The position numbers and the translations under genes were made by a program. A DNA stretch of 56,832 nucleotides, the filler included, from Streblomastix strix (Eukaryota): the NCBI GenBank assembly GCA_008636045.1. It is 3 parts of 3 records of this genome, joined end to end, with 100 filler letters (N's around TTAATTAATTAA, not from the genome) between each part and the next. Parts side by side here need not be neighbours in the genome. Positions count along the whole stretch, not along the records: positions 18,980 to 37,856 come from SNRW01000566.1; 2 more parts are not named here. One strand, written 5' to 3'. Positions 1,845-37,856 of this stretch are shown here, piece by piece. The notes beneath the pieces were generated by a model, which saw nothing but the letters and a program-made list of their open reading frames with translations, searched no databases and was not told where the DNA came from. The first letter of the stretch is position 1. Every line of letters begins with the position of its first letter.

Positions 1845-1926
1845 TAAATATATTATTTAATGATTTTATTAGTAAATTTATATTATTATTTTTGGACATT
1901 AAAATTTATCGCTTAACATAATTTTC

Positions 1927-4904: not shown

Positions 4905-6690
4905 ATGCTAATTAATGTTGAAGAATTTCTTGTTTACTCTAATTTTTTAAGTTCATTGTTATGTGTTGCAACAAAATCAGATCCTAAAATTGAATTACGC
5001 TTTATCCAACGATAATTCAATAAATAATTTAAGATGGAATAACTAAAGGAAATCATTATGATTGCATAAGAAACAAGAGGATAAGAAGCTTCATTAAAAC
5101 TTATCTAATTCATTAACGAATGGTGATTACAAGAACATATTTACTCAATTTTAGCTGATTATCGAAGACTTACTGCATTATTTCGTAATTCAGATTAATC
5201 ACTTCGTGAGTATCAACTTTATTTGCGGCTTAAAGATTATTTTTGTTTATTGTTTAAAGATGGCATAACTTGTTTTATAAATTATTTGTACTGACTCAGA
5301 TTCTAACAATATAACTTGGAAAACATCAATTCCAAGTGGTTCTATGTCATTTTAAGTAAATTCTCTTAATAATATGACGATTAATCTTACATATTACCTG
5401 AATTAAAAATTTCTTGAAATACAATATAATATGAAATTAACAGCAAATAAGAAATTATGTGAATAAATATAAAATCCCTATTGATCAAACAAATTAATTA
5501 AATTATCAGAAATTCCAGTAATAAAAATAAATTTTAACATAACAATAAATAACTGATTCACTAATAAATAGAATTATCAACGATAACAATATGCACAATT
5601 AATAATATGTATTTCAACAGCATAATAAGATGATTTTGTTTATACTTAATATAATTTTTCAGAACTTTGAATTCAAGTAATCGAGGAGCAATCTGATTTA
5701 ATAATGCTGTTAATTAACACACTAAGAAAATATCTGATGAAAAATTCACATTGAATTTTAATGATGGATAAGATATTGTATCATTGGCATTTAGTTATAT
5801 AAATCTGAGATTATATTCACTTCTTTATTAGAACTATATATAATCTAACGGTTGTTTCTATAGATTAATTGGTATAATTCGTTTGTATTGTTCAACAATC
5901 AATAATTTCATAACAACTATTGAACCATTCTTGACAACAACATCAGTTCATTCGGTTAAAATAAGATATTTACATGGGAAGTAATATAATATCAATGATG
6001 ATAACACAAAATAAGAAGTGATTGCTTTATTAATGAATATTTAAGAAATTTCTATGTATTCAATCTTAAACAGTGTCAATACATTCCTAATAAGGACAAT
6101 TTCGTCATTTCTGGTTAGAATTCTAATGATTGGGACTTAATATATACTGCTGTTAACAGACTTTAGTATAACAGCTAATATATTCCTGATGTATTAACTT
6201 AGTTATCATCTATGAATTACATAGGCAATGCATAATTGTTATTGTAACCAAGGAGATTACCTCTATTTATTTATTTTCGTACTTGAACTAATGGAAATAC
6301 TCACTATGAAAATAATTCGATTCGGAGTAACTTGGTTTTTCTTAAGATTTTTCTTATGAATCCATACCTACCTTCATCTTCAAGAAATCAGAACTTTCCT
6401 GTGTCATCATGCGATTCAGACATTGTATTTTTAATTTCTTTCTTCTATGATAAGTGAATTGATACATATATATATATATATATATATATTAATTGGAACT
6501 AGAATCACATCAAAATAACACCATAATTATTTTATTAATGATATTATTTAAGTTAATTACTTAGGCATTGATAAAGATATTATAGATAATATGAAGTTAA
6601 CTTCAAAATAAAAAGAATTAATAAAAATTACTATAATGTTTAACATATATCTTAAAAGAAGTTTTCAAACAATTAATTGCTTTGTTTTAT
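4905..6690 (+). pseudogene. Degraded viral ORF(s) upstream of the ATPase
   Basis: Coding-like frames. The 3' part (GTRITSKQHHNYF...DKDIIDNMKLT) is homologous to the ORF end preceding the ATPase in element 2 (GTNTISKQLHNVF...DTDIIDVIKLT). Contains a (TA)n tract at ~6467-6488. Confidence 0.5.
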
Positions 6691-6700
6691 AATAAATATA

Positions 6701-7480
6701 ATGACATTATCCGAGATATAATCTGTAACATTAACCAATAATTTTATGTTAGATGAATATAAAACTAAGCCATTGACAAGGAATTCATTATTCATAATCA
6801 ATGGGAATCATTATATAGTTGGTGCAGTTAGTTCAGAAAAAACTACTTTATTAAGAAAATTAATAGTAATTTATAAATAAAGAATCTATCCGTTCATTAT
6901 ACACTTCTCTAATTTTGGTGCTAATGAGACTATGGCATTGAATCTAAACTCTAAGAATATCGTATTAACTAATATAACATATGATGAAGCTATGTATTTC
7001 TTACCAAATTTTGATGAAATCAAGTACATGGTAAAAGAAATCTATACGTATTGGAAACTAAGAGAAGTTAATGTACCTTATAAATCAGAATTAGTATAAC
7101 GAATGAAAGAAAGAATATTAATAATCAATCCAATTATAGAAAAGTTGAAAGAATCTTAAAAAGACTATGTAAAACGAATTGCATATTTATTTTAATAAGA
7201 ATGTATCGATATAATTATCAAATACAGTGTTCCAACAAAAATAATGAGATTTACTATTCCTGCAATAATTCATTATATATAATTCGAAAAAAAACTAAAA
7301 ATCGTACCATAAGATACAAGTGCTGATGCCGTATTAAAAGTAATAAAAATTCCAATATTATTTTACAGTTTTTTATTAAATTTATTACTAATTTTTTATG
7401 ATATTGTATCAAATATTAGAAATCAGATTAAGTCAATGAATGAATCGCTAAAATCTATTATTAACTCAATGTTTTAGCTA
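6701..7480 (+). pseudogene. A32/FtsK-HerA-like genome packaging ATPase, decayed and 3'-truncated
   Basis: MTLSEIQ..EYKTKPLTRNSLFIINGNHYIVGAVSSEKTT is homologous to the 34169 gene, but Walker A and Walker B (LIFYD) are mutated. Runs abruptly into fibre sequence. Confidence 0.85.
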
Positions 7481-7499
7481 ATATCGTTTGAATAATGAA

Positions 7500-8730
7500 A
7501 AACTTGGATTTATTAGACAATGATTTCCTTGGAAAAAATAGCAACATTAGAATAAGAAGTTAATGTAACATAATAAACATTTGGAACTGCAACTTAAGAT
7601 ATTGGTGGTTTATAATAATAAATTAATGTAATTAATGAAGAACTTAATAGATAATCACATTTTAGAGGATACTATTTATTGAACTCTGATATATATATAT
7701 ATTATCAAATTCTGCTAATGATGATTTTACATTCTTTGCTGAAAGTGGAACTGTATGAATGTATGATTAGAATTGGTATAATAGTGGAGATATAGTTCCT
7801 GATTAAGTAACACCTGCAAGTGATGCTACTCCATTAGTTGATAGTGAAACTGGAGTTACAGGAACTTCAACTGAGTATTCTCGTGGAGATCATTAACATC
7901 CACTATAAGTATCTACTGTATTACCCGCAAAATATACTGCCACTGGAGATGAAGGTGCAGCAAGTACTTATGCCAGATCTGATCATTAACATCCAATATA
8001 GACTGTAGATACTATTCCAGTTAGTGATTCAGCAGATGGATCATATGGTACAGTTGAGTCATATACTAGAAATGATCATTCTCATCCAATTAATGTTGAA
8101 ACTAATGCTTCAATTATACCCATAGTTGATGGAGTTGGAAATAATGGTACTTCAGCATATTATTCAAGACATGATCATATTCATCTTTAATAATTAACTT
8201 ATGATAGTAATGTAACAGCAACTAAATTTATTAAGACAGGTGGAACAAATCAATAGATATTATTAGCTGATGGATAAAATAAAGCAATAATAAATTTTAA
8301 TACAAGTGTTGCACCAAGAGCATATCAAATTGATCCTGCTGATGGTATATATTGGATGTGTTTTGCTATATTAAATATATCTAAATTTACTTCAAATTAC
8401 GTTTTAAATGCAGGAGCAAGTACTTCATTTGCAGGCGTTACCTCAGGTACTATTTATATAAATCCTATGTCAGTTAATTTTGTTGGTGGTTTAAGAATTT
8501 CAAAAACAGTATAAAGAACAGGTAGTGCTGCAATTTAGTTAGGTTGTAGTAGAACCGTAAATACAGTATAGATAGCAGGATAATGGGCTATTTATACATC
8601 TCCAAGTAACTATGTTAATAATCCATTAGGTTTTATAATAGTATTGGCATCTGAAGCAAGTGATAATACTAGAGGATTACGAATAAGTGTTGATAGAAAT
8701 ACATTTAGATTCAATGGACGTGTATTATGA
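7500..8730 (+). pseudogene. Phage-tail-fibre-like protein (N-terminus deleted)
   Basis: HFRGYYLLN..WYNSGDIVPDQVTPAS, four YxRxDHxH repeats, KFIKTGGTNQQILLADG, then a GLRI..GQW..FNG module ending at TGA 8728-8730. Homologous to 30705-32945. Confidence 0.78.
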
Positions 8731-8767
8731 AACTCGTAGAGTTATATTAAATCCTCGATTTTCAAAA

Positions 8768-9605: not shown

Positions 9606-9614
9606 TAATATAAA

Positions 9615-9820
9615 TCTTCGTTTTTTTAAGTATGAATCTACTTTTCCAGCAATATTTCCAATTGTACCGATAACCCCACCAATTCCTGGATGTAACGTAC
9701 TTACTGGTCCACTTAAACAACGATAACTTTATGAATTGTTGGGGCCAGTCAACTTGCAGCTTTCTTAACATCAGTTAATATTTTGGAACCAAAATTTTTT
9801 AAGCCTGAGAAGAAACCCAT
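9615..9820 (-). pseudogene. Small amphipathic (adenovirus pVI-like) virion peptide
   Basis: MGFFSGLKNFGSKILTDVKKAAS*LAPTIHKV..LSGPVSTLHPGIGG. Homologue of 30472-30678 with one TGG>TGA stop and one frameshift. Confidence 0.75.
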
Positions 9821-9881
9821 ATTTATTTAATCAATAAAAATCTATTGATAGTTTTTATATAAGTAAGTAATTACATGAACA

Positions 9882-11846
9882 ATGAATTTCTCTGCAAATA
9901 ATTATCTATAAAAGCTCACATAATCATAACATTCTGATTATATTTCTTCATATACTGCATTGAATGAAGTTTTAAGATCTGCATCAATTCATCCTTAAAG
10001 TTTAGTTTTTAGTAGAGTTTGGTTTTTTGATTAACCAATTACTAAATTGACAAGTGATAGATAAAGATATACTCGTGCTCCATTAGGTGCTAGGGGGAGT
10101 GGTATATGTTCAATTGTATAAACTTGCTAGGCTAATTGGTAAATAACAATTCCAGCAGGTGGATTGGCATTATAAATTAATCATGCTGATTAAACAGCTA
10201 TAGCTGATACTGCAGTTTAATAAGCTGTAATTACATAACATAAAGTTAATTTTACAAGAAATGCTGATTATACATTTGATTATACCCTTACTATGGAAGC
10301 TAGAGCAAATTTTGATACATAATAATTATATATCACTTCAGAACATATCAAATTTTTGTTTGGATTTTCAACTGCTTGTGGACCATTTTAGTAATTTGCC
10401 ATTTGCAATGACAATACAAAACTATATGATACACCGATTTATGCAATAGAATAAGTCTTGATTACAGCAAATTCACTATCAAACTTATGTACAAATAATT
10501 CAGAGAATGTATCACCATTAGACTCAATAGTGGCTGGAAAAAGACATTGTGGAATATTTATTGATATCCCAGTAGCTGCATTCAGTGCAAATGCAGGTAG
10601 ATTCAACAATTTAATATCATTTCAAATAATATTTTTTTGGAGTACTTGATTTAAATCAATTGAATCCAATTTTCAATTCATTTCTGTTTAACGCGCAATT
10701 ATGCATCCTTATTTCTATAGTAATAGACTTAAAATTTCTTATAAGATCTGAAGATTATAAGGTTAATCAAGACTAATATGGTAACAAATGAACATCTTGC
10801 ATATTAAATGATTCCTCCAGAAAAGCCAGATAAAATTTTCCAAAGAAATCGTGATGATGTTGCATATGATACATACACTGTTAGAATTATTAATATGGAA
10901 GGAAAACTAAACACTGAAAAATTTCCTACCAATACGATTTCACAGATATTAGATGCAAAATTTGATAAAATTGACATAGGCAATGTAAGTTTCAATATGG
11001 AGAATGAAGAAGCAATTATAGATCTAATTCAAGCTAAAAAAAATAATTAATTATCCTGCATAAATTATTCATACATAATCTACAAATTTTCATTTCTGTG
11101 GCATTGATGAAAGTGGAGGTAATTTATAGAGTAAAATGTAATTTGCTAATATCAAATCAATGTATATAACGTTTACAATGAACTAATATTTTACTTGGTT
11201 CTTACTTGTTTTATTTTCGTGGTTTGATTTAATAATTGATTAGCGTCATCTAGTACCAGAATCTTACACTTCACTTAATCAAATAGTCTGTGGTTAAATG
11301 TTTAATAGTTTTTTAGATTAAGATGTTATAGCAGCACCTTCAGATTTTTATCATTCATTAACATTTGAAAACTGATCAATAAATGAATCAGAAAAAGATT
11401 ATTATGGTAAAATGGGTTCTGGAATAATAGATAGAGAAAATATATTCTATATAACTGCTTTATTCAGAAAAAGTAAAGCAACAAAAGTGTATTATCCTAA
11501 TAAGTTCATGCTTACATGGAAGATGGCTACAGATGATTCATTCATGAGCGGCTACAATTCATCTAAAATTGGCGCTAGAACTAATATTTATGTAACGTTA
11601 TAAGGCAGTTAAACTCCTGGAATCAATGAGAATTCACTAATTAATTCAGGAAAGTACCAGAACCATCACCAAATATTTTATGCAACTAGAAGTCATCCAT
11701 ATCCTAGAACTGCATACGTAACTCCATTGATGCATTATCTTTGTGATGCTATTGTTAGAGTTACTTTTAATGATGCACCAGATCCATAAGTTCTAACTTT
11801 AGAAGTGATTGGAGAATTAAGTGGAAAAATGGTATGAGCAGGATGA
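9882..11846 (+). pseudogene. Putative major capsid protein
   Basis: ~655 codons, colinear homology to 28423-30405 (YTRAPLGARG, STACGPF, GKRHCG, MIPPEKPD, YPNK..WK.ATDDSFM.G.NSS..GARTN). Carries stops and frameshifts. Capsid identity is inferred from size, conservation and context. Confidence 0.65.
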
Positions 11847-22448: not shown

Positions 22449-22981
22449 CAAAAATAATTTACAAATACTAAATACAAATATATAAGTTTAATATACCCGA
22501 ACATATGTAATTAAAATTGGAAAATTCAAAAAAAAGAGAAATGAGAAAAATATAATCGAGAAAATTAGAAAATTTATTAAATTGCAATAATGATAAATAA
22601 TAATATAAATATTTGGTAATATATGCAAAATTGATACAAATATAATTAAATAAACATAAAATAAATGTTCAAATTTATATGGTTTCTAAAAATTTTAAAT
22701 TTGAAAATTTTAAAAAAAATAAAATAGGTATATTATGAAGAATTATCATTTAGTTTTGTTCAATTTTATCTTAATCAAATTTTAATAATAAATTAGTATA
22801 AATTTAAATAAACTTAAATAGTTCTGAATGTTAGATATGCATAAAAACAAATATTTTCATATATAGGCACAGATGAAGTGGACTAATGTATAGTTAATAT
22901 AATTTTAATTGAATTGAGTCGTATTTGCAAATAAACATATAATCGAATAATTAAAATTAAAAATCAGTATAGAAATCAGTA

Positions 22982-25204
22982 TATTTTAGAAATATTCACG
23001 TTCACCAGCAAATTCATTGTTGCAAGTAAAGTAATGAAATCTTCTATTACCTTTCTCAGCAGGATTAGCATTCACATCATTGCATGTACAAGTAAAATTA
23101 CTCCATATTTCACTTTCTACTGAATCAACTCCTTTGCGTTCAACTATGCCACTTGCTTGTGTGATAGCACTCTTCATTTTATGTTGTAAATTGAATGAAT
23201 CAGTTGCGTCTTATATCTCATTAAAGTTGATCAGAATTGCAGTTGCTGCCAATGCGTTAAACTTACCAAATATCTTTGATAATTCATCTACATTCTTTAA
23301 CGCAAATATACCTAATAGTTCATAGATTGTTTCGAATGCAAATGACTTTCCACATCCTTATTAGCCAATGAAGTTCATCATTGTTCCAATTTTCAGTTTC
23401 ACTTGTTAGAAGATTGATGCGAACCACTTAATGATGTAATCATAATTCTATTCAGTATCAACTATACCTGCTAATACGTTTTTAATGTGGTTCAGGAATG
23501 GTTAAATTCGTGTGAAATCATTAGTCTATATCTCTTTGTACGCAAAGCCAGTGAACATATTAATACATCCTTCTTTATTTTTTCTTAGAAGATAACCTCA
23601 TTATATCGGAATGCTTTACCATATTTATTTATAATTTATCCGAGATTAATTCTATTCACATTAATGAATGGTTTATCGAACTTAAAGTAATTCGTCATTT
23701 ACTCTTCGGATTTCATTACTATTTTGAACTATCTTTTATGTCTTATTTTTGTGCAGCAAGATCCATATTTCACTCCAACAACTCCTCTAAGATCATTTAA
23801 CAACTAATTGAAATCACTATTTTTATACTATCTTGCTTTAACATTATTAATATCATACTCTGATTCGTTTATATTAATTGTTTTATCAACAAATAAGTGT
23901 TTATGCTCATTCTTATACCTCTACTAATCAATTGAATCTAAATGCTTGATAATCGAATAGAACCATTTGTTCGTGAAATCTTACATGAAATATTTCATAA
24001 TTTTATTAATTGTCTCATCAAAATTGTGATTATGTATTCGCTAATTATACCATTCAGTGTAGCATTCTTTAATGAATTCTTCGGTATGAGGAGAATAATG
24101 GATTGGAGCAGTTGTCTTCTCTAAATTCTCAAAGGTTGTTTCAAACTTATTCAATAACCCCATCATCTACTCTTTGTTAAATACTATCAGATTGTCATCG
24201 AAATCAACGTCATCAATTTTTATGTTTTTAATATGTGTTTTAGTTATTATTTTTCCATCACCTGCAACTTCAGCTACACCATTATCTACATCTACTAATC
24301 TCTTTGCGTTAGTTTTCTCTTTCTCCCTTTCTTTCAAACTAGGTAGTTTATGAATAACATTATTCCAATTACTAATCACATCGCCAGTTGAAGAGTCATC
24401 TTATATACATTAGATAATCTGATTAAATGGTTAATCATTTGGTTTACATAGTTGACCAGCGATGTATATTGATTCTTTACCTCTATAATTTTTACTCGAA
24501 AGTATGTATCTGAATATTTATCGAGATGACTTACTAACATATTTCAGTTTGTAAACGGAATCATCAACGAATTCATTAATATCATAGACAAATCTCCTGG
24601 TATTTTAATTTCCAACTTTCTTAACAATTTCCATCATATCTTATTAAAGGATTCGTTTTTCATAGAAAACAACATGAATTGATATCTTTTTTGCAGCATC
24701 AGTAATATATTTCAAATTGTGCGTTGCGCATATTTTAGGATCATTTGAATATCCACCAATTGAGTATTAGCCAAATTCACTAACTAAAGAATCTAACTAA
24801 ATAATTGCTGAAGCGTATTGGTCATTTGATTCAATGTGGTCAAAATCGAAGTAAGGATGGCAATATTTATCTGGAAGGATTACTTCATTAAAAGCAACTG
24901 AACCATCAAAAGTAAAATCATTTATCTTAGTCGTATAATATGTACATATGTTCTTGAGATCTGATGATACATCAATTACTGGATACCACTTAACAAAGAA
25001 TTCAGGAATGATACGTTTAGATGTTTCATTTACGTATTTGCTAAGTAAATCATCAAGAAGCTTATTATCTTATTCATCTACGGATTCAAAAATATTTTCA
25101 TTAGTCTTATTTTTCTCTTGTTCTTCAATCATTTTATCCATCAATTCTCGGGCAATTACACCAGATTTTGTGATAGAAACATTGCGTGTAGTTTGTCTTG
25201 ACAT
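22982..25204 (-). pseudogene. AEP primase fused to SF3 (D5-like) helicase
   Basis: FNEVILPDKYCHPYFDFD, KISIHVVF and VDDSVYK (AEP motifs I-III); FIGQQGCGKS (Walker A), LINFNE, IVERKGVD, TCN and NRRF. Frameshift near 23580; C-terminus appears truncated. Confidence 0.88.
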
Positions 25205-25278
25205 TTTGTTTTGGAATAAAAAAGTAAATTAGTTTGTGAATCTAACGAGAAATATTTTTTCAGTCGCTATCTATAAAT

Positions 25279-25306
25279 GACCGACCGACCGACCGACTGA
25301 CTGACT
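25279..25306 (+). repeat. (GACC)4(GACT)3 tandem tetranucleotide
   Basis: Directly visible, after ctataaat and upstream of the primase start. Confidence 0.9.
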
Positions 25307-25974
25307 TTTTATATTTTGACCATTTTAAGGGTCTCAACCCTATACGCCTGCACACATGGACAATTCGTATCGTTTATCCACTCCATTAATCTTTTTCATT
25401 AATCCGCTTAATTCGACATAATCATCAGTCCATCCATTCACTTTAAACATTATATTTGTGATCAGAGTATCAACATTGACTTAGATATCAATTTTCAAGT
25501 GATTCAAAAAACTTCAATTTTTCTATGATTTTTCAGTCTAAATAATAAAAATAAAATATATTTATAATAGGTCAAAATTCTGATTAAAAACTTAATTTTC
25601 CATATCACTTTGATACACTATCCTAAGGTCATATCTTACTCGTAGATTCCAAAAACAACCATTATAATCGATTCTGAAACTGTTCATCACCGTTAATTTC
25701 ATAAAATGATGTGTTTCATCCATCGACCAGTTAATCGATACCATTATCTCAATTTCATCAATGAAAACTTAATCGGACATAGTCAAATAGCCAATATAAG
25801 TTAGTACGCATCGGTCAAATCATTGATTTGGGCTATAAATAGTTAATGAAAAAGGACGATGCCCTAGCATTGCTTAAATCCTATTCGTTTGTGAGTTTCA
25901 GAAATCAAATCAATTATTTTTTATCATTAATGTTTAAAATAAATCACGCCAATTATTTTTATCATAAATGTATA

Positions 25975-26619
25975 TCATAAATAATACAATTATTTTTCAT
26001 TACTAATGATATTCATAAATGTTATTGTTTATTATTTTGCCCGTATTTCTTTATTAACATCAAATTTATTCTTTGATTTTCGGTTCTGGATAATCTGCTC
26101 GTTTTTCATATGTTAGCAATTCGTAATATCACTGGTTATTTCTGATGTGGACAAATCACTGCGTTTTTCAATGTGAGGGCGTCGTCCTTTTTCATTAACT
26201 ACTAATCTAATTAGTTCCTCCAAATCAAGTTGCAGATTAGTATAATTAATTTATGGTGTTTTTGATGTTTTTACTATTCTTTTTCTTACTTGTTTCTTTA
26301 ATGGTTTTTCTCTAACTTCGCTTATGTAATTGTCATCGCTATCATTTTATTACTCATACGGTTCTTAAGATATAAAATCTTCATCTTCATCAAGTAAATT
26401 TTATGGTTATTTTTAAACTTTTTTCTTTGGTTCAAGCCCTCCAACTCTAGCTTATAATAATAATTTATTCTATTATGTTTATGTTAATTTTTTAAGTGTC
26501 TTCTTTCCTTCTTCAAATACTTTAATATCTTTATTAATTTGGATTACATATCCAATATCAAAGTATTCAATATTTGTTCCATTCTCTATCAAATTCATTA
26601 ATGCGTGTTGTAAGTCCAT
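25975..26619 (-). CDS. Viral hypothetical protein, 214 aa, acidic then basic tracts
   Basis: Open in code 6 from MDLQHALMNLIENG to TGA. The 3' end overlaps an inverted repeat. Confidence 0.6.
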
Positions 26620-26696
26620 TTGAATATTTTTAAATAAAGAAAATGATAAAAGGCATAGAAAGAAACTCAATTCGAATGTCAAAAACCAAAAAATAA

Positions 26697-28194
26697 ATGG
26701 CTGAAATTAAGCATAAAGAACTTACGGATGAAGATAAAATAAGATTGCAATTGATCAATGATGCAATTAGCCGCATAAAGACAATGCCACAGATAGGTCT
26801 CGAACGAAGTGAAACAATTGACGATACGTCTAAAACCGATACCGAAGGTCTAAGCTACGCTAAAGATTCTGGCATAAATGCTAAGCCAAAAGAAAATCCA
26901 ACGTAAACTGGGAATGAAATTATTCAAGTAACACCAGAATAATTGATCCTTACAGAATAAAAAAAATTACTAAGTATAAGAGCAAATATAATAAAGATAA
27001 ATATAAACAAATTGATGGAACAACTGCATAAGTTGATCCAGAGGAAGTAGTTAAAAATATTTATCTTTCTCATCCAAATCTTGAAGTAATGAAATTCATT
27101 ATTGATAAATTATGGGCTACAGTTACTATAAGAAAAAGAGCTGATGATTTTAAACTTTCATCTGATAATTTTATTAAACTGTGGTCATTAATCACTTAAA
27201 AAAATGAAGATGATATTGAAATTGTATTAGATGAACCATTAATGAGATCCCATTCATGCATAGATAAATCATATAAAAAGAAAGATCTTATAAGAGTAAT
27301 GGATGTACTAATTAAAAATGTTAGCATATCAGTTATTGATAATGGTCTTTTTAATTCTATTGAGAAACTATATCGAATTAACTAGGACTTTGTTCGCTTG
27401 TCTGATGTACCTACATCAGAGATTTCCAAAGATGACTTTTGATTGTGGAACGAATGGCAATTATTTTTGTAATAAAAATGGAATAATAATTAAGCGATTT
27501 AGATATAATTGACGAAGATAAATAAATTAATTAGTAAGAAGAGTTATTTAAAATAATAAAATAATAAGAAGAGAAATAAAAATAAATTAAGGAACGTAAT
27601 ACATTATTATAAGTTATAAATAATGAGATAATAAAGTACTTTAATTATTTGAGTTAATTCTTTAAAAATTCTATCGATTTTGTTAATTTACATTCTGAGT
27701 AGATTATTCGTGGGGTAATGACATTTTTATCACCTATAATAGTTGGCAAAATTATTAAATAAGGTGGTACAAGTAATTAAATTCTATTAGCTAACGGTGA
27801 TACTATTGAAAAGTAAAAATTAGAACCAACAACAGCGAAATCAGGAATTTTTCATGCCGGTGATTATGTCGTTGGATTAAGCTAAGGGTCTTTAGTTTTG
27901 CATAGCAGCGGTATAGTATATATTAGCGCATATCTTCATTGGACGTCATAAGGTGGTGTGACTAGCATACCCGTCACGGTGGGATACGTTGATGCTGAAT
28001 TTATTCCCCATTTTTCTGACCGCGTAACCATGAAACATTTAACAGCACGATCTTAACAAATGACTTAATATCTTGATTGTTTAATCAATTAACGTGGTGA
28101 GGTCATCATAAATTCAAATTCTCTTTCAAGTTCACCATCACCATTAAACATTGAAATTAATGGTACATATTTTATTAAATTTGATGGTAATTGA
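26697..28194 (+). pseudogene. Second fibre-like protein with receptor-binding-like C-terminal domain
   Basis: MAEIKHKELT.., coiled-coil, FVNLHSEQIIRGVMTF..KIIKQGGTSNQILLANGDT (shared with the other fibres), then beta-rich tip GIVYISAYLH..VGYVDAEFIP..IEINGTYFI. One frameshift (~26960) and one TGA. Confidence 0.65.
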
Positions 28195-28276
28195 TGCTAT
28201 ACTCGTAGAATTACTCCTTTGGAGTCAGAATCTCTGATTATCTGACAACATAGTTGTTAATATAAAAATAATCAAA

Positions 28277-28402
28277 ATGAATCCGATTACTGAAACCATC
28301 ATCTATTCTCTTGAATAATTGAACATAAATTGGCATGAAATCTTTAAAGCTATTTGGGAAGCAGCAATCAAATATGCCTGCGAATCAAAGATATGTCGTT
28401 GA
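28277..28402 (+). CDS. 41-aa viral small ORF
   Basis: MNPITETIIYSLEQLNINWHEIFKAIWEAAIKYACESKICR* with an AAAATG start context, filling the intergenic space. Confidence 0.45.
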
Positions 28403-28422
28403 AAAAATAACTTTATTTTTGA

Positions 28423-30405
28423 TCATTATGGTTAAATAGCTCTTTTAGCAAGCTCACCAATAACATCAATATTTAGTACTTATGGCATTGTACTATCATC
28501 AAATATGATTCTAACAGACGCATCATACAAGTAATGCATCATTGGAGTAATAGATGCTTTATTAGGATCAAGATATGCTCTAGTTCCAATGAATTATTTG
28601 AAATCTTTTTAGTTCTATGATGGGAAAATATTAGTTGTATCAATAATTCCTTTAGTCAAATTTCCCTACAAAATAACTTATACATTAGTTCTAGCACCTA
28701 AGTTGGAAGAGTTTAATCCTCGCATAAATGAATCATCAGTAGCCAATTTCCATGCAAACGTATATTTGTTAGGATAAAGTGTTTTAATCGCTTTACTTCC
28801 ACTATACAATGTTGTTAAATAGAATAGATTAGCTGTTTTATATTAATCGGCATTATCTATCCTTCCATAATAATGTATCTTATCATCAATATTCAAGTTC
28901 TCGAATGTAAGTGAATGATATAGATCTGATGGTTCACTAACAACATCTTAATCAACGAAGCAGTCAAACATTTATCCATTAGTTGCTTAGTTTAATGATT
29001 TATATGGCTATGGGATAACATTGTTCTAATCAATAACTAGATTAAGTCCTATGAATAATACAGGGAAAAACCATGTTGGATATTAGGGCATAGTAAATGT
29101 CATAAATAGTGATTTTATGTTAGAGAATGGCATAATGCTTTACATTGTTCCACTAGTTTTATCAAATCCACTAAACTGAAAGTTCGATGATTGTGTTCTA
29201 AATACTTATGTAGGAAAATTTATGATTTTTTGTTATTGAATCATACTAATTATAGCTTCTTCGTTTTCAATATTGAAGCATACGTTCTATATCTCTAATG
29301 TATCAAATTTAGCTGTACCAATCTAAAAAATTGAATTTTGTGGTATCTTAACACCAACAGCAGTATTTTGCATATTTACAATTCTTACATTATATCTTTA
29401 ATACGATAGATCAGCAGCAGTATCTCCTGCCAAAAGAAAAACTATATCAGGTTTCTCAGGAGGAATCATGTGATAAGCTAAATGGTTATTTTATATAGTA
29501 TCATTTTTGTTAAGCCAAATAACCTTCAAATCTTATAGGAAATCTTATATCCATAATTGTAGATATAATGTTCCATAATTACGTGTGAGAACAGGGAAGG
29601 AATTAAATATAGGATTCAGTTGGTTAAGATCAAGTACTCCACTAAATGTAATATCAAAAGGTATTCTATAATAGAATGGTGTTCCAACGGTAGCAACAGT
29701 TGCTTATCTATCAATTTCACAAAGTGGGATATCAATAAATACTCCACAATGACGTTTTCCTTCAATTATACTTTCTAGTGGTGATACGTTAACGCTATTT
29801 TTAGTGCACAAATCGCTAAGAGAATTTCCACTAATTACTGCTTATTTTCTTGCATAGATTGCAGATCCCCATAGTGCTGTTGCATCTTTCAATAATTAGA
29901 ATTAGTAGAATGGTCCACATGCAGTTGAGAATCTAATCCAAAATTATAGATGTTCTGATGATTCAATCCCTTAAGCTGTTTTACCGAAATATCCTTATGA
30001 CGCTTATGACATATTTGTAGTCCAATCGGCTAACGGATCTTCTTTACCATTGATATTAGTTCGTGCAATTAATTTACCTGCAGTATCCCAGCCATCATAT
30101 GTTTTATTTAATTATATTGCAAATGTGTTTGCAGGTATTGTAATTGTCCAATTTACTTAACAAGTTTGAACCATTGAACATGCTGATTTACCTCTTGCTC
30201 CTAATGGTGCTCTAGTATATTTAACTTCACTAGATGTTAGTTCTGTAATTGGAGAATCGAAGAAATTTTGCTTTGATATTTCAAACGATTATGGATGGAT
30301 AGATAATGTTTTTAATACATCTCCAAGTTACATATATCCACTAACGTAATCAGAATGTGCTATATTCGCTAATCGTCCAAGATAATCACTGGATTTGAAA
30401 GACAT
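28423..30405 (-). CDS. Putative major capsid protein, 660 aa, intact
   Basis: Read codon by codon: no in-frame TGA from ATG 30405 to TGA 28423. Full-length homology to 9882-11846. Function inferred from context. Confidence 0.7.
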
Positions 30406-30471
30406 TTCATTGAAACAAAAATTAATGTAACGGAATGAATGTTTATGTTAAAAGTTTTTATATTAAATCAA

Positions 30472-30678
30472 ATGGGTTTCTTCTCTGGAATAGCAAATTT
30501 TGGGTCAAAAATATTAGGTGGCGTTAAGAAAGCTGCATAATGGGTTGCACCAACATTGCATAAAGTTTTGTCAACAATATCAGGTCCTGTTGGAATGATT
30601 CACCCTGCTATTGGAGGTGCATTAGGTGCAGGAGCTAATCTCGCAGGTGCTGTTGATCGACTTGTAAATAAACGTTGA
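30472..30678 (+). CDS. 68-aa amphipathic Gly/Ala-rich peptide (pVI-like candidate membrane-lytic protein)
   Basis: MGFFSGIANFGSKILGGVKKAAQWVAPTLHKVLSTISGPVGMIHPAIGGALGAGANLAGAVDRLVNKR*. Conserved in element 1. Confidence 0.82.
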
Positions 30679-30704
30679 TCTTGTCATAATTTATTTTTGA
30701 AGAA

Positions 30705-32945
30705 ATGAATGCTTCACTATCATAATAGTAAATCCGTACAGTTAGATAATTCATCACTAACGATATAGCTTACAACATTCAATATTAGAAACGAGGTAAT
30801 GCAAGTAGTGGAATGATGTCAAATGAAGAGTATTAATTATTCATAGATAATAACAATGCATTATTCTACGCTGCTAATAATTAAATCGTTGATGGAATGG
30901 CATCAGATTACGCATTAAAAATAGAACCTAATGAATTGCTAACGATAAAGAATTTGAAGGTGATTAATTTTGATTTTGTTGCATAGATTAATTAGTTGAT
31001 TAATTAAGTAAATTTACTATAACAATCAATTGAAACAACTGAATAGGATATAACTGATATAAAAAATGATATTGATACTATTAATTAAGAATTGTCACGA
31101 TAAACACATTTCAGAGGATATTATTTATTGAATACAGATATATAAAATTTGCCTAATTCTGCTAATGGTGATTTTGCTTTTAGCGCTGAAAGTGGGAACA
31201 GTTTGGATGTTTGATTCAAATTGGTATAATAGTGGAGATATAGTTCCAGATCAAGTTACACCAGCTAGTAATGCAACACCATTATCTGATGGTACAGCAA
31301 CTGCAGGAATTAGCACTGAATATTCACGTGGAGATCATGTTCATCCAATTAATATTACAACTACTATTCCAATTAGTGATTCTGCTAGTCGATCAGTTGG
31401 TACAACTAATTATTTTGCCAGATCTGATCATTCACATCTATTAAATATAACAACTATTATATCACCACAAGATAGTGCAAGTGGATCAGTTGGCACAACT
31501 AATTATTATGCTAGAAACGATCATTCTCATCCCATTAATGCAGAATCTAATGCATCAAATATTCCTGTCGTTAATGGTATTGGTGCTAATGGAACATCAG
31601 CTTTTTACGCTAAACAAGATCATATTCATCCATAATAATTAACTTATGATAGTAATGTTACAGCAACTAAGTTCATTAAAACTGGAGGATTAGCAACAGA
31701 AATATTATGCACTTATGGTGATACAACTACTTTAGATAATAAATTATCAAGAACATATTCAGGTAATGGATGGGTTAGATTATGTGTATTTCCTGCTGGT
31801 GCTAGTGTTGGTAGTCCATTCATTGAATTCAAACTATATTCAGCATATAATGCTGATCAAATCATTATACTTTAGCCTTATTATACCGTCAATGGAATCA
31901 ATACTTTATATGGAATATTTACTGCTCCAACTAGAGTTACATCATACTATTTGATTGATAGTGGTGCAAATAAATTATTTCATACTCATACTGGAACATG
32001 TACAGCAGCTATTTATTCTGCATATATTAGATTAGAAACAGTAAGTTCTATTACAGTAGTGGTTACTGATTAAAGCACTTATTATACCAATAGAATTACC
32101 GAGATATTAACGTAAGATGTTGTTTCATCAGTTCTCATTGGTACATAAATACCTATAAATTATAACTATGGATATGGAGGAATAATGTAAAATATTCTAT
32201 AAGTTAATCTAATAGATCGAATGAAAGGAAATTATAATAATGGTATTAGAATAGGATCATTTGTGAGTGAATCTTCGTTATATTTAGCTTGTAGCAATTC
32301 AACAATTAGTGGAACAGCTGCAGGGTAATGGGAAATAAGTAAAACAAGTGATGATGCACTAACAATAAATCCATCATCTCTACGATAAGCAGATCGTAGT
32401 GTTTGATTAAGTATTAATAGTGATAGTTCAATAATTAAATTTAATGGTAATGAATTAGTGAATGTTGGAACTGATTAAACGATTAATGGAAGAAAGACAT
32501 TTGGAGGTACTACTTTAGGTAGTATTTAATTAAATTCAACTGATGTATCATACGGTGAAGGGATAAGAATAGCAGATAGTCCTACTTCAAATGTTAGCGC
32601 TATTTATATAGGAACATCGACTAGTTCATCAGGTGAGATTGACGGATAATGGACAATAATAAAAGAAGTGCTGGTGAATTGATAATAAGTAGAACAGCTG
32701 ACAAAAATATAGATAATAAAGGATTAATGATATCAGCTGATGGAAACACATTATCTTTCAATGGTTCTGAAATTGCAGGTGTTGGCGCAACTAATGGAGC
32801 GACTAACTGTTCGGTTAATTATTCTGCTGGCAATCCTATATTATGTGGTGCAAATAGTGTTGGAACAGAAGATGGATTCTATAGTAATGGAAATAACGTA
32901 TTCTGGAGAGCTCATCCATTAACAATGGGATCAGTTCCTCCATGA
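30705..32945 (+). pseudogene. Phage-tail-fibre-like protein
   Basis: N-terminal coiled coil, four HxH repeats (YSRGDHVHP, FARSDHSHL, YARNDHSHP, YAKQDHIHP), KFIKTGG, and two GIRI..GQW..FNG modules. Frameshifts at ~31194 and ~32660, one TGA. Confidence 0.8.
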
Positions 32946-33004
32946 GGATCTTCGATCTGTCAAGCTTTGGTTGGAACAATGATGTAAGTTTATTTTTGAA
33001 ATAA

Positions 33005-34160
33005 ATGGAAAAAGCTGTAACATAACCGATCAAACAATTATTCAATGAATTTGTCAAATCACACTTTCAAGATAATGACACAATTAAAGTTACAATTAAG
33101 GCACTACAAAATTTGTTAAAGAATGATGTAAAAGAATCAATCCATCCATTTCTCCAAGAATTTATGAGAATCAATAAAATGTTCAATAATCAGTAGCAAT
33201 AATTATAAAATTTAAAGAAAATGGTTGATGAAAAAGATTTTAAAAATAAGTTATTTAATGAATAGAGTAAGTACTTCAAAAATAAATATCTTATAATCAA
33301 AAAGTCATTAGTTATAAACAATTAACCATAACAAATAAAGAAATACATTATTTCTGAAGCTATTGAAGAAGAAAAATAGATCTACAACTAATTTGTGAAT
33401 GATGAGTAATACAGTAACTTTGTCAATTACTATTCTCTTCAGAAGGCTCCTCTAAATCTTGAAACACTCGCTTGAGAGCCGCTTATCTTTGATAATTAAT
33501 TTTATCTAAAATAATTTGATTGTTGGCATTTTAGATATAATCGATTATCTCTTTAATTTTATCTTACATTGGATCGTGGGGACAAAAGTGAAAATGTTAC
33601 AACCTCGTATTATATCTATTTGAATCAGTTTGATCTAATTCAACCATAAATTACCATGGAATTATAGTATTCGTATTAAGTGCTTAAAAATTTTTGAATA
33701 CCTCATAATCAGACGCATCATACTTTTCTCCAATTGTTTTTGCTAAACTATACAGCTCGTCCGTTTTATTATTTTCAAAAAATTTATTTATTAGATTAAT
33801 TTAACATTTTAAGATACAAGATTTATCTCCAATGAGTTGCCAATTCCAAATCTTTATTAGATATTGCTTCGTTCAGAAATGCTTCAATTTATTCTACAGA
33901 TAGCTATGACCAATGTATACGAGGTTAATTTTTATCCATTTTTCTTTTGTCAAAGAATTGTATAATGTAAATCGTTATATTTAATGGAACTAATACTATA
34001 TCGAAATAACTCCATAATGTTTTACTACATTAACTATATCCATTAATTTATCAGGAACTGACACAGATATAATTGATGTAATAAAACTAACACCATAGAA
34101 CATGTAATTCATTACGTTAATGATTATCGATAATATGTTGCATTAATACAGAGTCATTTT
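33005..34160 (+). pseudogene. Viral hypothetical protein between fibre and ATPase
   Basis: MEKAVTQPIKQLFNEF... N-terminus homologous to the 8768 ORF, C-terminus homologous to ~6490-6610. Internal TGAs. Confidence 0.6.
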
Positions 34161-34168
34161 TAATATTT

Positions 34169-35191
34169 ATGAAAATGTCACTACAAGAATTATAAGATAT
34201 CACATTTACTAATCAAGATCTATTGAACGAATATAAAACTAAACCATTAACGAAGAATTCATTGTTTCTGATTAATGGTAATCATTATATTGCTGGAGCT
34301 GTAGGAAGCGGTAAAACAACATTAATGTGTAAGCTAGTTGTAGTATATAAGAAAATCATTGATCCATTTATATTATACTTCTCGAATTATGGTGCGAATG
34401 AAACTATTGCATTAAACCTTATTAGTAAGAACATTTAACTAACGAATGTAACTTATGGAGAAGCAATGATATTTCTACCTGAATTTGATGATATAAATTA
34501 TTCCACTAAAGAGATGTACACTTGGTACAAAATGAATGAGCAAAAATAATCTTATACTAGCGATTTCATTAAGCGAATGGAAGAATAGATATTATAAGCT
34601 AATGAGATTAAAAAGAATGAAAAACCTAATGATTATCTTAATAGAATTGCAGAACTATACAAATAAAAAGTAATCGAAACCATTAATACATTTACTTAAC
34701 CAACCAAGATATTGAGATTCGATATCCCTGCTTTAATTCAAAATGTTAATTACTAAAAGAAATTCAAAATGGTAGACAACGATTAGGTTGATATAAAGGT
34801 GATGAAAATACCTATATTAGGAAAAGCTTAATTACTCCATACATTAATGCTCTTCGATGATATTGGATCCAGTGCAGATATATAACGATTCAGTTCATAA
34901 ATATCTAAAACATTAACGCATCTCATTAGCGATTCTCATCATTCAAAAAATACTATTTTCTTTATAGCTTAACGACCAACTTATTTGTTCAAGACAGCAA
35001 GGATATTAACCCATTTAATTTGCTTCGGGGTGAATTTAGGTGAATCTGAAATAAGATAAGTGTATGAGGAAAATACCATATAAAATTTAGATTTTGATGA
35101 ATTCTAAATACTATACAACACATTAAAGAAATACGAGTTTATCATATTGAACAAATGGTTAGGAAAATTTGAGATTCTCAAAAACAAATGA
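34169..35191 (+). CDS. A32-like genome packaging ATPase, 340 aa, open frame
   Basis: Walker A GAVGSGKTT, Walker B LMLFDD, ISDSHHSKNTIFFIAQ..KTAR. No in-frame TGA. Confidence 0.88.
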
Positions 35192-35239
35192 AAATACGGA
35201 ACTTACAGTTATAATTAATTTTTTTATCTGTACATAAAA

Positions 35240-35823
35240 ATTGCAGAAGAAAACAATGAAGTGAATTATTGGGAACCGTTAGTTGTAGACACTGACTATG
35301 AGATATTAACAGAAGAACCACATACGATTAGAAGAATTTCAAATTGATATATTCTAGCAATATCTATAAATAATTCAAACGGATATTATTAAATTAAATT
35401 AAAAAGAAAAACATATCTATATCATCGTATTCTAGCATTATATTTCTTATTTAATCCTAATCATTTACCAGAAATTGACCATATTAATAGAGTAAAGTCA
35501 GATAATAGATTAGAGAATCTAAGATGGTGTAATAGGTCTAGTAATTTAATAAATAATAGTTCACATCAAGATATATAGTACAATTATATTGATTAATTAT
35601 CCTATGACGCTATTACAGTTAATTAATATGGATTCTTGCAGTTTGAATTTCTATATTTTGAAAATGACAATTTCTATTTCTATAATGGATTATAATATCG
35701 ATAACTTCACATTAATGAACATAAAAAACATGTACATTATTTATTTATGCTTATGATATCAATAATATATAACGTTTAGTAACACTCAATAAATTTAAAA
35801 AATTATGTAATATTGATTAATGA
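35240..35823 (+). pseudogene. HNH homing endonuclease
   Basis: GYYQIKL..YHRILALYFLFNPNHLPEIDHINRVKSDNRLENLRWC. Start codon lost, internal TGA, frameshift. Confidence 0.88.
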
Positions 35824-35847
35824 AAAATAATTTATTTCTGTTTAGCA

Positions 35848-35877
35848 GAGCTTAGCGGAGCTCAAACCTACGGTTTC
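35848..35877. terminator. Twin hairpins between convergent HNH and polB genes
   Basis: gagct-tagcgg-agctc immediately followed by aaacc-tac-ggttt. Function inferred. Confidence 0.35.
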
Positions 35878-35889
35878 AAATCTTTGGTT

Positions 35890-37856
35890 GCATTCATATG
35901 AGTAGTATTTCGCTATGAGCCCGAACATATAAGGGCAACAACTCTAGTTCTCTAATACTATCATTTTTGTATGTATACCAATTATTCCATTTTTCTCAAT
36001 AGATAATTAACTCATCTAATGATTCTTCTATCCCAATCTCATGTTTGTGCATTTCGTTATTTTTCCATCATTAATGCAACCAACAATCTGGTCTTTAGTG
36101 ATCTAGTTAGTCTTCTAATTAACTCCTTTCAATTTTATTTTTGAATCATCGCAATAATTCTTGAAAATGATATAATTTTTGGGAGCTAATGCAATCATTG
36201 ATGGACCTTGTCGATCGATTGCTAATCCAAGGATTTTCTTCTCTTCATAAATGTCTCCTTTAATTGTAGGGAAGAAATACTTAGCGTTCTCATTATAAAA
36301 ATCTCTGTCTTTAACTACGGCATTAAATTACTAAGTAAAATCTTCATTAGGATTTTCACTAATTCCCCAATAAGCTGAATAAGTACCTCCTTCAATAAAA
36401 TGTATCCTATTCATATCTAAGCATTTATACATGAAATTATATATGAAATTTAGACACCAATATTTAGCATCATCTAAAACAAAGAATGCTACTAATAAAG
36501 GAGTATTACAACTACAATGCTCAAGATTCATTTATACAATATAACTGTCTTCAGATATCTTTTGTTCGTCCATGAACGCATTAGATCTAATTGCTCTTTC
36601 TGTTTACTTCCTATTCATCATTTTAACTTAATTATATTTCTCTGTATTCATTCTATCACTACCATATGAGCTATTCATAACTATCTTAAAGAATTATTCT
36701 TATCCCTTACTCTCATCTAATTTTGCTTCAATTCTGTTTTTACTAAATTCCTTAATAAATGAGTTGAATTAATCATGTTTATTGAACAGAATTATCCATT
36801 TCACATCATCTATAATAAAATAACAATCATCAATTAAGAACCATAAATAGTATTAGCTAAATGCCATATATTCTCCCATCGTTGATGATAGATTAGTTAG
36901 CTTTCTTTATTTTTGATCTGTCTTAATCGTACTGTCTTTCATGTGATTGAACATATAACTACCGATAGTTCTTTCATCAGTTGTAAATTCATAATTCCTT
37001 AGAATAGGATAGAAGTTAATATAGTAATTAAGGTAATTCTCATTAATGTGACCTTTAACTTCAGAAATGAATAATTAACCATCTTCTGTGAATCTCTTTT
37101 TGCTATTAATCATTCTTAATATAGTTTATTTTGAATGTTCAGTGTCTCAAATAATCTTACCTGTTTATGATCCACACATATACATTTTACCTCCAGTATA
37201 TTTTATAAATTTATGTGGTTCTGATGGCATAACACTAGGATATAAGGAATTAAAATCAACACCAACTACATCAGTAATTTGATGATCAGTTGTTAGAACA
37301 GTGACTTTTTTATTTTCTTTATCATACCATAATCGTTTTATAAAATCAATTCCTGATCTATTAACTCGATGCATTACATTTGATAATCCACCTGTGATCC
37401 ATTTCCTAAGCAAATGATATACTTCAATATCTGTTAGATTAGTTAGTAAGCATCATATCATGCAATATCTACGTAATTATATGAATAATTATCCTATATT
37501 TTTGTCTTTATCCGAACAGAAGCAATTGCAATATAAACAGCAAGGCTGAACGTTATCTTTTGAAGGACCTTTTGAATTATCTATTCTGTCTAGTGTTGGT
37601 TTATTAGAAATAGTGAATTTGCGTCCACAAATGCTGCAATTAGAAACTTTGAATTACTGTTTGAAATAATCGAAATCACTATCTTGTACAATATTTGTTG
37701 TGTCTCTTTTTTTATGTTTATCTTACGATAGATATCCTTTCACTTTACTCTACCAATAGTTCTCTGTTAAGTAGAATTTCTATGAGTTATCTTCAAAATT
37801 AGGATATAATCCATTAATATCAAAATCTTCATAGGCTTTTGCATATTTGATTGCAT
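35890..37856 (-). pseudogene. Family B DNA polymerase (5' truncated by contig end)
   Basis: CSICGRKF..PTLDRIDNSKGPSKDNVQPCCLYCN, GVDFNSLYPS, KIVMNSSYG. Motif C decayed to EGGTYS; KGVN present; internal TGA ~37453. Confidence 0.92.

What the first reader, a model, noticed from the sequence alone, without database searches (positions are those of the whole stretch)
22980..37856. Recoded endogenous Polinton-like virus family with phage-like fibres, seen as two divergent members
Seen: two separate contigs carry homologous but divergent gene sets (polB, ATPase, 660-aa conserved protein, 68-aa peptide, HxH fibre, unknown ORF). Element 1 adds an rve integrase; element 2 adds an AEP-SF3 helicase, a second fibre and an HNH nuclease. 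Known: polB + integrase + A32 ATPase + capsid defines Polintons/Mavericks. Inference: a distinct virus lineage of an anaerobic protist, easily missed by standard-code gene calling, with an entry module (tail-fibre-like adhesins plus a lytic peptide) not typical of described Polintons.
Basis: partly seen in the sequence, partly recalled or inferred. Interest (0 to 1): 0.88.

Follow-up and report, generated by a model that had tools for sequence, protein, structure and literature searches.

The report
Recoded Polinton-like virus of termite-gut protist
Two broken copies of a DNA virus, with a predicted double-jelly-roll shell and genes written in the host's altered genetic code, lie in what is likely the genome of the termite-gut protist Streblomastix; such elements and their phage-like fibres are a known kind, but this shell protein likely marks a second, undescribed lineage with standard-code relatives in metagenomes.

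Summary
The window is three joined contigs read in table 6. Contigs 1 (1-11837) and 2 (22980-37856) carry partial, homologous, rearranged Polinton-like elements. The 660-aa protein folds (pLDDT 84.7) as a double-jelly-roll capsid (Foldseek E 1e-12, VIA Z 14.9). Its best 120 of 183 homologues are all Streblomastix strix proteins and form one clade against standard-code metagenomic relatives (21-28% identity). Those relatives also carry the 68-aa amphipathic peptide, ATPase and a fibre. The fibre's 31-aa HxH repeat recurs in phage tail-fibre-type proteins.

The novelty claim needs trimming. Table-6 viral elements in S. strix are published (Bellas 2023, 820 capsids in one cluster). Phage-like fibres, protein-VI-like or cupiennin-like peptides, HNH genes and nuclease-bearing pPolB are all described in PLVs or Polintons. 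What looks new is the capsid family, which appears unlike the published S. strix cluster; I could test that only indirectly. Both copies are broken; no TIR, TSD or protease was found (partial contigs). Lytic and binding functions are inferred. Verdict: new member of a known kind, interest 0.45.

The parts
35920..37854 (-). Element 2 pPolB, C-terminal part (runs off the contig), with an in-frame endonuclease-VII/HNH domain at 37456-37854; two in-frame TGA, motif C altered
   Evidence: motif A DFNSLYP present; homologous to contig-1 pPolB
35192..35740 (+). Free-standing HNH_3 homing endonuclease directly after the ATPase; one in-frame TGA
   Evidence: Pfam HNH_3 E 5.5e-8 for 35348-35740; frame
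34169..35191 (+). Packaging-type ATPase (Walker A and B present; the conserved RH motif of relatives is altered here)
   Evidence: motifs compared with P0287 and L002; homologue in L002 E 1e-18; the A32 label is recalled, no Pox_A32 profile hit
33426..33872 (-). Small unknown ORF (ORFb)
   Evidence: only a 12-aa match to the contig-1 counterpart, E 0.019
32942..33475 (+). Unknown ORF (ORFa) shared by both elements
   Evidence: E 1e-6 and 5e-7 to contig 1 8795-9226
30705..32945 (+). Fibre 1: N-terminal segment, coiled-coil-like stretch, four DHxH repeats spaced 31/31/33 aa, repeated distal modules; two frameshifts and one TGA
   Evidence: tblastn with intact P0277; repeats; homologues
30472..30678 (+). 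68-aa cationic peptide with an amphipathic N-terminal helix, divergent from the capsid gene; intact
28423..30405 (-). Double-jelly-roll major capsid protein, 660 aa, open frame
   Evidence: model pLDDT 84.7; Foldseek E 1.4e-12 to PBCV-1 capsid; VIA Z 14.9, rmsd 3.7 A, 336 aligned
27454..28194 (+). Fibre 2 (short)
   Evidence: 57-aa module shared with fibre 1, E 7e-7; linked to ATPase and fibre 1 in S. strix gene models P0284 and P0288
26658..27439 (+). Unknown ORF (frameshifted), also present in other S. strix copies
   Evidence: P0284 and P0288 E 1e-47 to 1e-49
25975..26619 (-). Unknown ORF, 214 aa
   Evidence: no meaningful family hit
22980..25204 (-). Putative AEP primase fused to an SF3 helicase, frameshifted near 23550, helicase end degraded; membership in the element is inferred from adjacency and GC
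   Evidence: DUF5906 E 1e-13; PHROG primase E 5e-14; AEP motifs by eye only (negative); GC 0.289 vs 0.212 in the flank
1..1812 (+). Element 1 pPolB, C-terminal part, with the same internal nuclease domain; three in-frame TGA
2466..3002 (+). Element 1 rve-type integrase fragment
   Evidence: Pfam rve E 0.0027, below cut-off; IS30 transposase E 0.027
5290..6005 (+). Element 1 fragments homologous to the 701-aa ORF of L002; candidate minor capsid (fold not tested)
   Evidence: E 0.003 whole window; E 5e-6 and 0.004 in a local search
6701..7498 (+). Element 1 ATPase (Walker A altered, frameshifted)
7520..8730 (+). Element 1 fibre with four DHxH repeats (frameshifted)
9620..9820 (-). Element 1 copy of the peptide (broken)
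9882..11837 (+). Element 1 major capsid gene in four pieces with in-frame stops; a host sugar-transporter gene follows from about 12641

Best explanation
These are two broken, partly assembled copies of an integrating Polinton-like DNA virus family that uses table 6, has a predicted double-jelly-roll capsid and likely multiplied into many subfamilies in Streblomastix strix. Shown: the capsid fold (as a confident model), host-like use of TAA/TAG for Gln, a multi-copy clade, and purifying selection between the two copies. Inferred life cycle, by analogy with Polintons, PLVs and adenovirus: rve integrase inserts the linear genome; pPolB (perhaps helped by the primase-helicase) copies it; the ATPase packages it into an icosahedral shell. 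The fibre would dock by its conserved N-terminus at the vertices and extend as a trimer whose DHxH repeats likely bind metal along the axis, with variable distal modules binding a surface glycan. After uptake into a vacuole, the cationic amphipathic peptide would breach the membrane as adenovirus protein VI does. The two copies here are likely inactive.
For: Fold: pLDDT 84.7, pTM 0.87; top Foldseek rows are DJR capsids (PBCV-1 E 1.4e-12, Sputnik 2.5e-11, mavirus 8.4e-10); VIA Z 14.9. Code: 36 of 46 Gln codons in the capsid are TAR, versus 36 of 39 in a host gene; Gln is the commonest residue opposite TAR codons in 18 distant homologues, 18% against 5% overall. Family: the best 120 of 183 hits are S. 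strix, 44-92% identical; 39 S. strix/window rows are split from 15 environmental rows at 100/100, and the two window copies fall in different subclades. dN/dS 0.19-0.56 over six gene segments. Integration: element 1 is followed by host sugar-transporter and kinase genes. Module conservation: standard-code L001 and L002 carry capsid, peptide and ATPase together, and L002 also a fibre; the fibre N-termini align weakly, E 0.003. Peptide: net charge +6, hydrophobic moment 0.53-0.69; 3 of 6 PDB hits are the adenovirus pre-protein VI helix. Repeat: a profile from window and S. strix units scores 7 of 7 outside repeat proteins at 20.8-40.1 bits, shuffles at most -0.1; 3 of the 6 non-Streblomastix fibre hits carry PHROG tail-fibre domains.
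Against: No TIR, TSD or Polinton end motif was found, and no protease motif was found outside a chance hit in the capsid; both elements are partial. The integrase hit is below cut-off. The protein VI match is not significant (E 1.6-4.2), and the amphipathicity p-values (0.002-0.007) are optimistic because the best window was chosen first. S. strix fibres hit no Pfam or PHROG family (0 of 8; 1 of 10 irrelevant hit), no fibre structure and none of 50,697 phage records. 0 of 26 IMG/VR loci related to P0291 carry the repeat. Gln also makes up 12% of residues opposite Lys codons in the code control. The tree carries a long-branch warning. The fibre and the candidate penton were not folded. Expression and virions are untested.
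Confidence: 0.8

Rival explanations
1. The capsid belongs to the S. strix cluster already counted by Bellas et al. 2023 (MMPC_40, 820 hits), so the finding is fully known.
For: Same host and code. The part of Table S5 holding S. strix contigs was cut in the copy I could read, and sequence cells are cut at 400 characters. Some UniRef clusters of my hits are already named 'Major capsid protein'.
Against: Four motifs of this capsid are absent from the readable supplement (two of them fall within the first 400 residues). Six locus tags of my hits are absent. The four S. strix reference tags seen are not among the 120 named hits. The metamonad and Entamoeba representatives (528-663 aa when full length) look unlike this family by eye. 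Ten near-full-length distant profile hits sit in clusters of 1-3 members, unlike a Trichomonas-scale family; 61 of 211 profile hits were not listed.
Confidence: 0.15
2. The lesions are errors from assembling many similar copies out of amplified single-cell DNA, and intact, possibly active elements exist.
For: Bellas et al. show such false stops in other protists. 23 of 120 capsid hits are 620 aa or longer. The contig-2 capsid and peptide are open frames, and intact fibres exist.
Against: Lesions include several in-frame TGA substitutions and changed catalytic motifs, not only indels, and they differ between the two copies. The contig-1 capsid has a longer end branch (0.32) than its sisters (0.04-0.14).
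Confidence: 0.2
3. Region 22980-37856 is a composite: the primase-helicase end (22980-25300) is a separate neighbouring or nested element.
For: A short-repeat tract near 25280-25310 and a 38-bp inverted repeat (25835-25872 / 26169-26206) lie at the junction. No counterpart occurs in element 1 or L002. pPolB plus primase-helicase is called uncommon in PMC3671162.
Against: GC is continuous with the element and above the flank. Some Polintons encode S3H, and some PLVs have AEP primases.
Confidence: 0.3
4. The element depends on a giant virus (virophage-like), and the fibre and peptide serve co-entry or defence rather than independent infection.
For: Gezel-14T is such a PLV and carries a phage-like fibre. 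Virophage capsids are among the closest structural matches.
Against: It has its own pPolB and integrase. No helper virus gene is seen in the window. Structural ranks among DJR capsids are tied and carry no classification signal (7-11% identity).
Confidence: 0.2

Closest known systems
Metamonada Maverick-Polinton/PLV group, cluster MMPC_40, of Bellas et al. 2023 (PMC10120064)
   Same: Endogenous DJR-capsid elements in S. strix using table 6, in hundreds of copies; capsid recognised only by structure.
   Different: This capsid (about 645-660 aa) shows no shared motif with their representatives (not scored), and its detectable relatives are unnamed metagenomic proteins. No gene-level description of S. 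strix elements was seen in the parts I read. A 2026 preprint (10.64898/2026.06.19.733378) still leaves metamonad elements ungrouped.
Polintons/Mavericks (Polintoviricetes)
   Same: pPolB, rve integrase, packaging ATPase, DJR capsid; nuclease inserted in pPolB as in oomycete and nematode pPolB2 and other polinton pPolBs.
   Different: No protease, TIR or TSD seen (partial contigs); capsid has no sequence-level match to solved capsids; gene blocks are inverted between the two copies.
Polinton-like viruses with phage-like fibres (Gezel-14T Ltf; cryptophyte and Paulinella PLVs; DSLV2 virophage)
   Same: Long modular fibres with phage tail-fibre-type parts, BppL-like motifs, HNH_3 next to the ATPase.
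   Different: The shaft here is a tandem 31-aa DHxH repeat with no Pfam or PHROG family and no S74 chaperone.
Adenovirus protein VI; MELD 'VI' and adintovirus cupiennin-like genes (PMC8502044)
   Same: Short cationic amphipathic N-terminal helix; the motif aligns with the protein VI helix.
   Different: Stand-alone 68-aa gene beside the capsid gene; similarity not significant; no protease seen that could process it.

Membership tests
Polinton/Maverick | Double-jelly-roll major capsid protein | tested here: met
Polinton/Maverick | Protein-primed family B polymerase | tested here: inconclusive
   PolB motifs A-C by inspection and weak profile hits (Pfam E 0.018, PHROG E 0.006); the terminal-protein and exonuclease part is off-contig
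Polinton/Maverick | rve retroviral-type integrase | tested here: inconclusive
   Pfam rve E 0.0027, below cut-off, element 1 only
Polinton/Maverick | A32-like packaging ATPase | tested here: inconclusive
   Walker A/B and RH motif by inspection, conserved beside the capsid in L001/L002; no Pox_A32 profile hit
Polinton/Maverick | Single-jelly-roll minor capsid protein | tested here: inconclusive
   candidate 701-aa ORF in L002 with fragments in element 1; no family or PDB hit; not folded
Polinton/Maverick | Adenain-like cysteine protease | tested here: inconclusive
   not seen in either partial element (motif scan) or among the L002 ORFs scanned; elements are incomplete
Polinton/Maverick | [quoted passage not shown] | not testable with these tools
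   both elements run off their contigs; no genome held; no TIR or end motif at the visible ends
Metamonada cluster MMPC_40 (Bellas 2023) | Capsid clusters at 25% identity over 30% length with MMPC_40 capsids | tested here: inconclusive
   indirect only: motifs and tags absent from the readable supplement; unlike by eye; no alignment score
Virophage (Maveriviricetes) | Virophage-type capsid sequence plus protease | tested here: inconclusive
   no sequence hit to Sputnik or mavirus capsids; structural similarity tied with other DJR capsids
Phage tail fibre | Trimeric fibrous fold with tail-fibre domains | tested here: inconclusive
   repeat shared with tail-fibre-type proteins; no profile or structure hit for the S. 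strix fibres; not folded
Adenovirus protein VI-like lytic peptide | Amphipathic helix homologous to protein VI with membrane-lytic activity | tested here: inconclusive
   amphipathic and cationic; 3 of 6 PDB hits, E 1.6-4.2; activity not testable

The most novel reading that the evidence does not exclude
This is an unclassified, family-level lineage of DJR viruses of anaerobic protists, separate from the Trichomonas-type Mavericks in the same genome. One branch entered a table-6 host and fully recoded while its sisters kept the standard code. It keeps a true homologue of the adenovirus protein VI lytic helix as a stand-alone gene and took a DHxH repeat shaft from gut phages. The fibre could then bind the bacterial ectosymbionts that coat Streblomastix (symbiont coat recalled), letting the virus ride bacteria into the protist, as proposed for the DSLV2 virophage.
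Probability: 0.2. Interest if true: 0.75.

Novelty: new member of a known kind. Interest (0 to 1): 0.45.

Why it matters
Metamonad Polinton-like elements are still unplaced because their capsids are so divergent. A second capsid family in S. strix with intact standard-code relatives on contigs up to 22 kb gives material to place such viruses and to identify their hosts. Recoded and standard-code sister clades make it testable how a DNA virus adapts to, and is perhaps trapped by, a host's altered genetic code. If the peptide is a real protein VI counterpart, the adenovirus way of breaking out of the vacuole reaches deep into protist viruses.

Tried and rejected
First structure model from 49 S. 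strix-type rows: pLDDT 45.7, no Foldseek match at E 0.001 or better and no VIA match at Z 5 or more; replaced by a 70-row alignment with distant relatives. Capsid profile against PDB sequences: 0 hits. IMG/VR scans for capsid relatives with P0146, P0219, P0216, A2 and P0202: none confirmed. A second protein search with the diverse alignment returned only 5 proteins. Fibre and primase queries against phage records: no match. Relatives of P0291 in IMG/VR are tailed phages where tested (portal, head or terminase in 3 of 4 loci scanned), but 0 of 26 carry the DHxH repeat in ORFs of 100 aa or more, so they do not prove a phage source for the repeat. The L030 neighbourhood is only weakly phage-like (2 of 11 ORFs with a PHROG hit). 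pPolB against PDB sequences: no relevant hit. The 122-bp inverted repeat at 18980-19101 / 22327-22448 was rejected as this element's TIR: both arms lie on the same side of the element. Complex prediction of capsid with peptide was not available. Read-level checks and the whole genome were not available. The ESM Atlas was not used. Earlier findings of this scan: none.

Full report
Layout and code. The window is three contigs joined by N spacers. Only table 6 opens long frames: 65 of 200 aa or more, against none for tables 1, 4, 15 and 22. In this AT-rich DNA many of those frames are shadows, so genes were picked by codon score, homology and profiles. In the capsid gene 36 of 46 Gln codons are TAA/TAG, like a host gene on contig 3 (36 of 39). 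Gln is the commonest residue opposite TAA/TAG in 18 distant homologues, 18% against 5% over all positions, though also 12% opposite Lys codons. The host is likely Streblomastix strix: the best 120 of 183 capsid homologues carry that name. No hit was 100% identical, so this rests on similarity.

Two elements. Contigs 1 and 2 share pPolB, ATPase, fibre, peptide, capsid and one unknown ORF; contig 3 shares nothing. Read in the pPolB direction, element 1 is polB> int> (unknown) penton-candidate> ATPase> fibre> ORFa> <ORFb <peptide capsid>. Element 2 is polB> <HNH <ATPase ORFb> <ORFa <fibre <peptide capsid> <fibre2 <ORF ORF> primase-helicase>. The ATPase and the fibre block are inverted between copies, and the divergent peptide-capsid pair is kept. 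Both run off their contigs inside pPolB. Element 1 is followed by host sugar-transporter and kinase genes; element 2 is 29% GC against 21% in its flank, element 1 26% against 24%. No TIR or end motif was found. Both copies are damaged: in-frame TGA in pPolB (three and two), frameshifts in fibre and contig-1 capsid, and altered catalytic motifs in pPolB and ATPase. Between the copies dN/dS is 0.19-0.56 over six segments, so the subfamilies diverged under selection before decay. Reads could not be checked, so assembly error remains possible.

Capsid. A model from S. strix-type rows alone failed. A profile search of 1.84 billion representatives gave 211 hits, 150 listed, among them ten near-full-length distant proteins from unnamed Logan, ENA, JGI and NCBI records on contigs up to 21.8 kb. 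With these and further relatives (21-28% identity) the model reached pLDDT 84.7 and matched DJR capsids: PBCV-1 E 1.4e-12, Sputnik 2.5e-11, mavirus 8.4e-10, virophage, adomavirus and NCLDV capsids in BFVD, VIA Z 14.9, rmsd 3.7 A over 336 residues. Identities of 7-11% give no class assignment. A 54-row tree used 37 of the 120 S. strix hits (those of 575 aa or more), both window copies and 15 environmental rows (P0245 and most near-duplicates left out). It separates the 39 S. strix rows at 100/100 on a stem of 1.67, with a long-branch warning and no outgroup; the window copies sit in different subclades.

Standard-code relatives. Three JGI loci were recovered, 3 of 276 pattern matches. L001 and L002 read cleanly in table 11 and carry capsid, a 68-69-aa peptide directly downstream, a small ORF and the ATPase; L002 also has a 701-aa ORF and a 542-aa fibre. 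The 701-aa ORF matches broken frames in element 1; I take it as the minor capsid by position and size only. The L002 fibre has BppL-like motifs (E 0.02-0.04; PHROG tail E 3e-5), no DHxH repeat, and an N-terminus that aligns weakly with the S. strix fibre (E 0.003). This suggests a fixed anchor with exchangeable shafts (inference).

Fibre. Intact S. strix fibres are 700-780 aa. Among 20 hits longer than 700 aa, 14 are S. strix and 6 are not. Three of the six carry many PHROG tail-fibre matches and one of these has collagen plus an S74 chaperone; two others (P0290, P0292) have long tandem arrays with the same 31-34 aa period. A Clostridia MAG protein has one unit at 69% identity and a weak minor-tail hit. 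A repeat profile scores all seven at 20.8-40.1 bits and their shuffles at most -0.1. Against this, the S. strix fibres themselves hit no family, structure or annotated phage, and 0 of 26 phage-like loci related to P0291 hold the repeat. 'Phage-like' is fair for the repeat; direction of transfer is not shown. Metal binding by HxH in trimeric fibres is recalled from T4 gp37 and is not tested here.

Peptide. It is conserved across the long stem (30% identity), has net charge +6 and an amphipathic N-terminal helix. A three-sequence profile returned six PDB sequences at E up to 10; three were adenovirus pre-protein VI, aligned on its known helix, E 1.6-4.2. Cecropin scored E 0.035 for L001 and L002. 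This is suggestive, not significant; the endosome-lysing role of protein VI is recalled.

Nucleases and replication. An endonuclease-VII-like domain (PHROG E 1e-11) lies in frame upstream of polymerase motif A in both pPolBs. A separate HNH_3 gene follows the ATPase in element 2. The SF3 helicase is solid; the AEP part is by recalled motifs only (negative).

Literature, with what I saw. PMC10120064 (passages, part 2 of 7, supplement searches, parts 27-28 of supplementary file 2, which is cut): S. strix EVEs use table 6, 820 capsids in one cluster. My motifs and tags were absent and the representatives looked different by eye; the S. strix rows of Table S5 were not readable and could change this. 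PMC12220804 (passages): phage-like fibres common in PLVs, HNH_3 beside ATPase, AEP primases. 10.1101/2022.07.28.501842 (passages): Gezel Ltf in virions. 10.1101/2023.08.22.554363 (passages): HNH inside pPolB2, tail-fibre-like genes in oomycete Polintons. PMC8502044 (passages): 'Fiber', 'VI', cupiennin, PLA2X. PMC11161782 (one passage), PMC8097293 (passages), PMC3671162 (passages). 10.64898/2026.06.19.733378 (passages): metamonad elements ungrouped. 10.64898/2026.10.13.758929 (one passage). PMC12724248 (abstract): virophage fibres binding bacterial LPS. Searches pairing Streblomastix with Polinton or 'endogenous viral' returned only PMC10120064; Monocercomonoides with Polinton returned one review, listing only. 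bioRxiv supplements were not seen and subscription papers are not searched.

Verdict. A real, decayed endogenous Polinton-like virus family in a table-6 oxymonad (confidence 0.8). Its kind, recoding and entry-gene types are known. Its capsid family is probably not the published one (about 0.8) and has intact standard-code relatives. New member of a known kind; interest 0.45.

Noticed in passing
window 18980-19101 and 22327-22448: Perfect 122-bp inverted repeat (one arm cut by the contig start) enclosing 3.2 kb of AT-rich DNA with no Pfam hit in three frames scanned; possibly a non-autonomous DNA transposon next to element 2.
   Followed up: partly
window 46290-48374 (+): Intronless 694-aa ribonucleotide reductase with a B12-dependent (class II) insertion-domain hit, table 6, 34% GC; a likely lateral acquisition in the host.
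   Followed up: partly
window 25835-25872 and 26169-26206; 25280-25310: 38-bp inverted copy of part of ORF 25975-26619 and an ACCG/ACTG short-repeat tract near the start of the primase-helicase; possible rearrangement junction.
   Followed up: partly
window 3565-4650 (-): Long coding-like frame inside element 1 with no family hit and no counterpart in element 2.
   Followed up: partly
window 17876-18071 and 18680-18879: About 200-bp direct duplication (90% identity) at the end of a host kinase plus ARM-like gene.
   Followed up: no
window 44278-45420 (-), 54618-55388 (-), 12641-14610 (+): Host genes: ubiquitin-activating enzyme E1 C-terminal domains, an RRM protein, and a sugar transporter in several pieces.
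   Followed up: no
L002 5380-7293 (+): Three tandem ORFs of about 200-220 aa that look like paralogues by eye, between the ATPase and the 701-aa ORF; no Pfam hit for the first.
   Followed up: no
P0284, P0287, P0288: Public S. strix gene models fuse separate viral genes (unknown ORF, fibre 2, ATPase, fibre 1), probably through false introns; annotation artefacts that still record gene order.
   Followed up: partly
P0290, P0292: 1385-1849-aa unnamed proteins with long tandem arrays of the same DHxH repeat, one on a 101-kb contig; origin unknown.
   Followed up: partly
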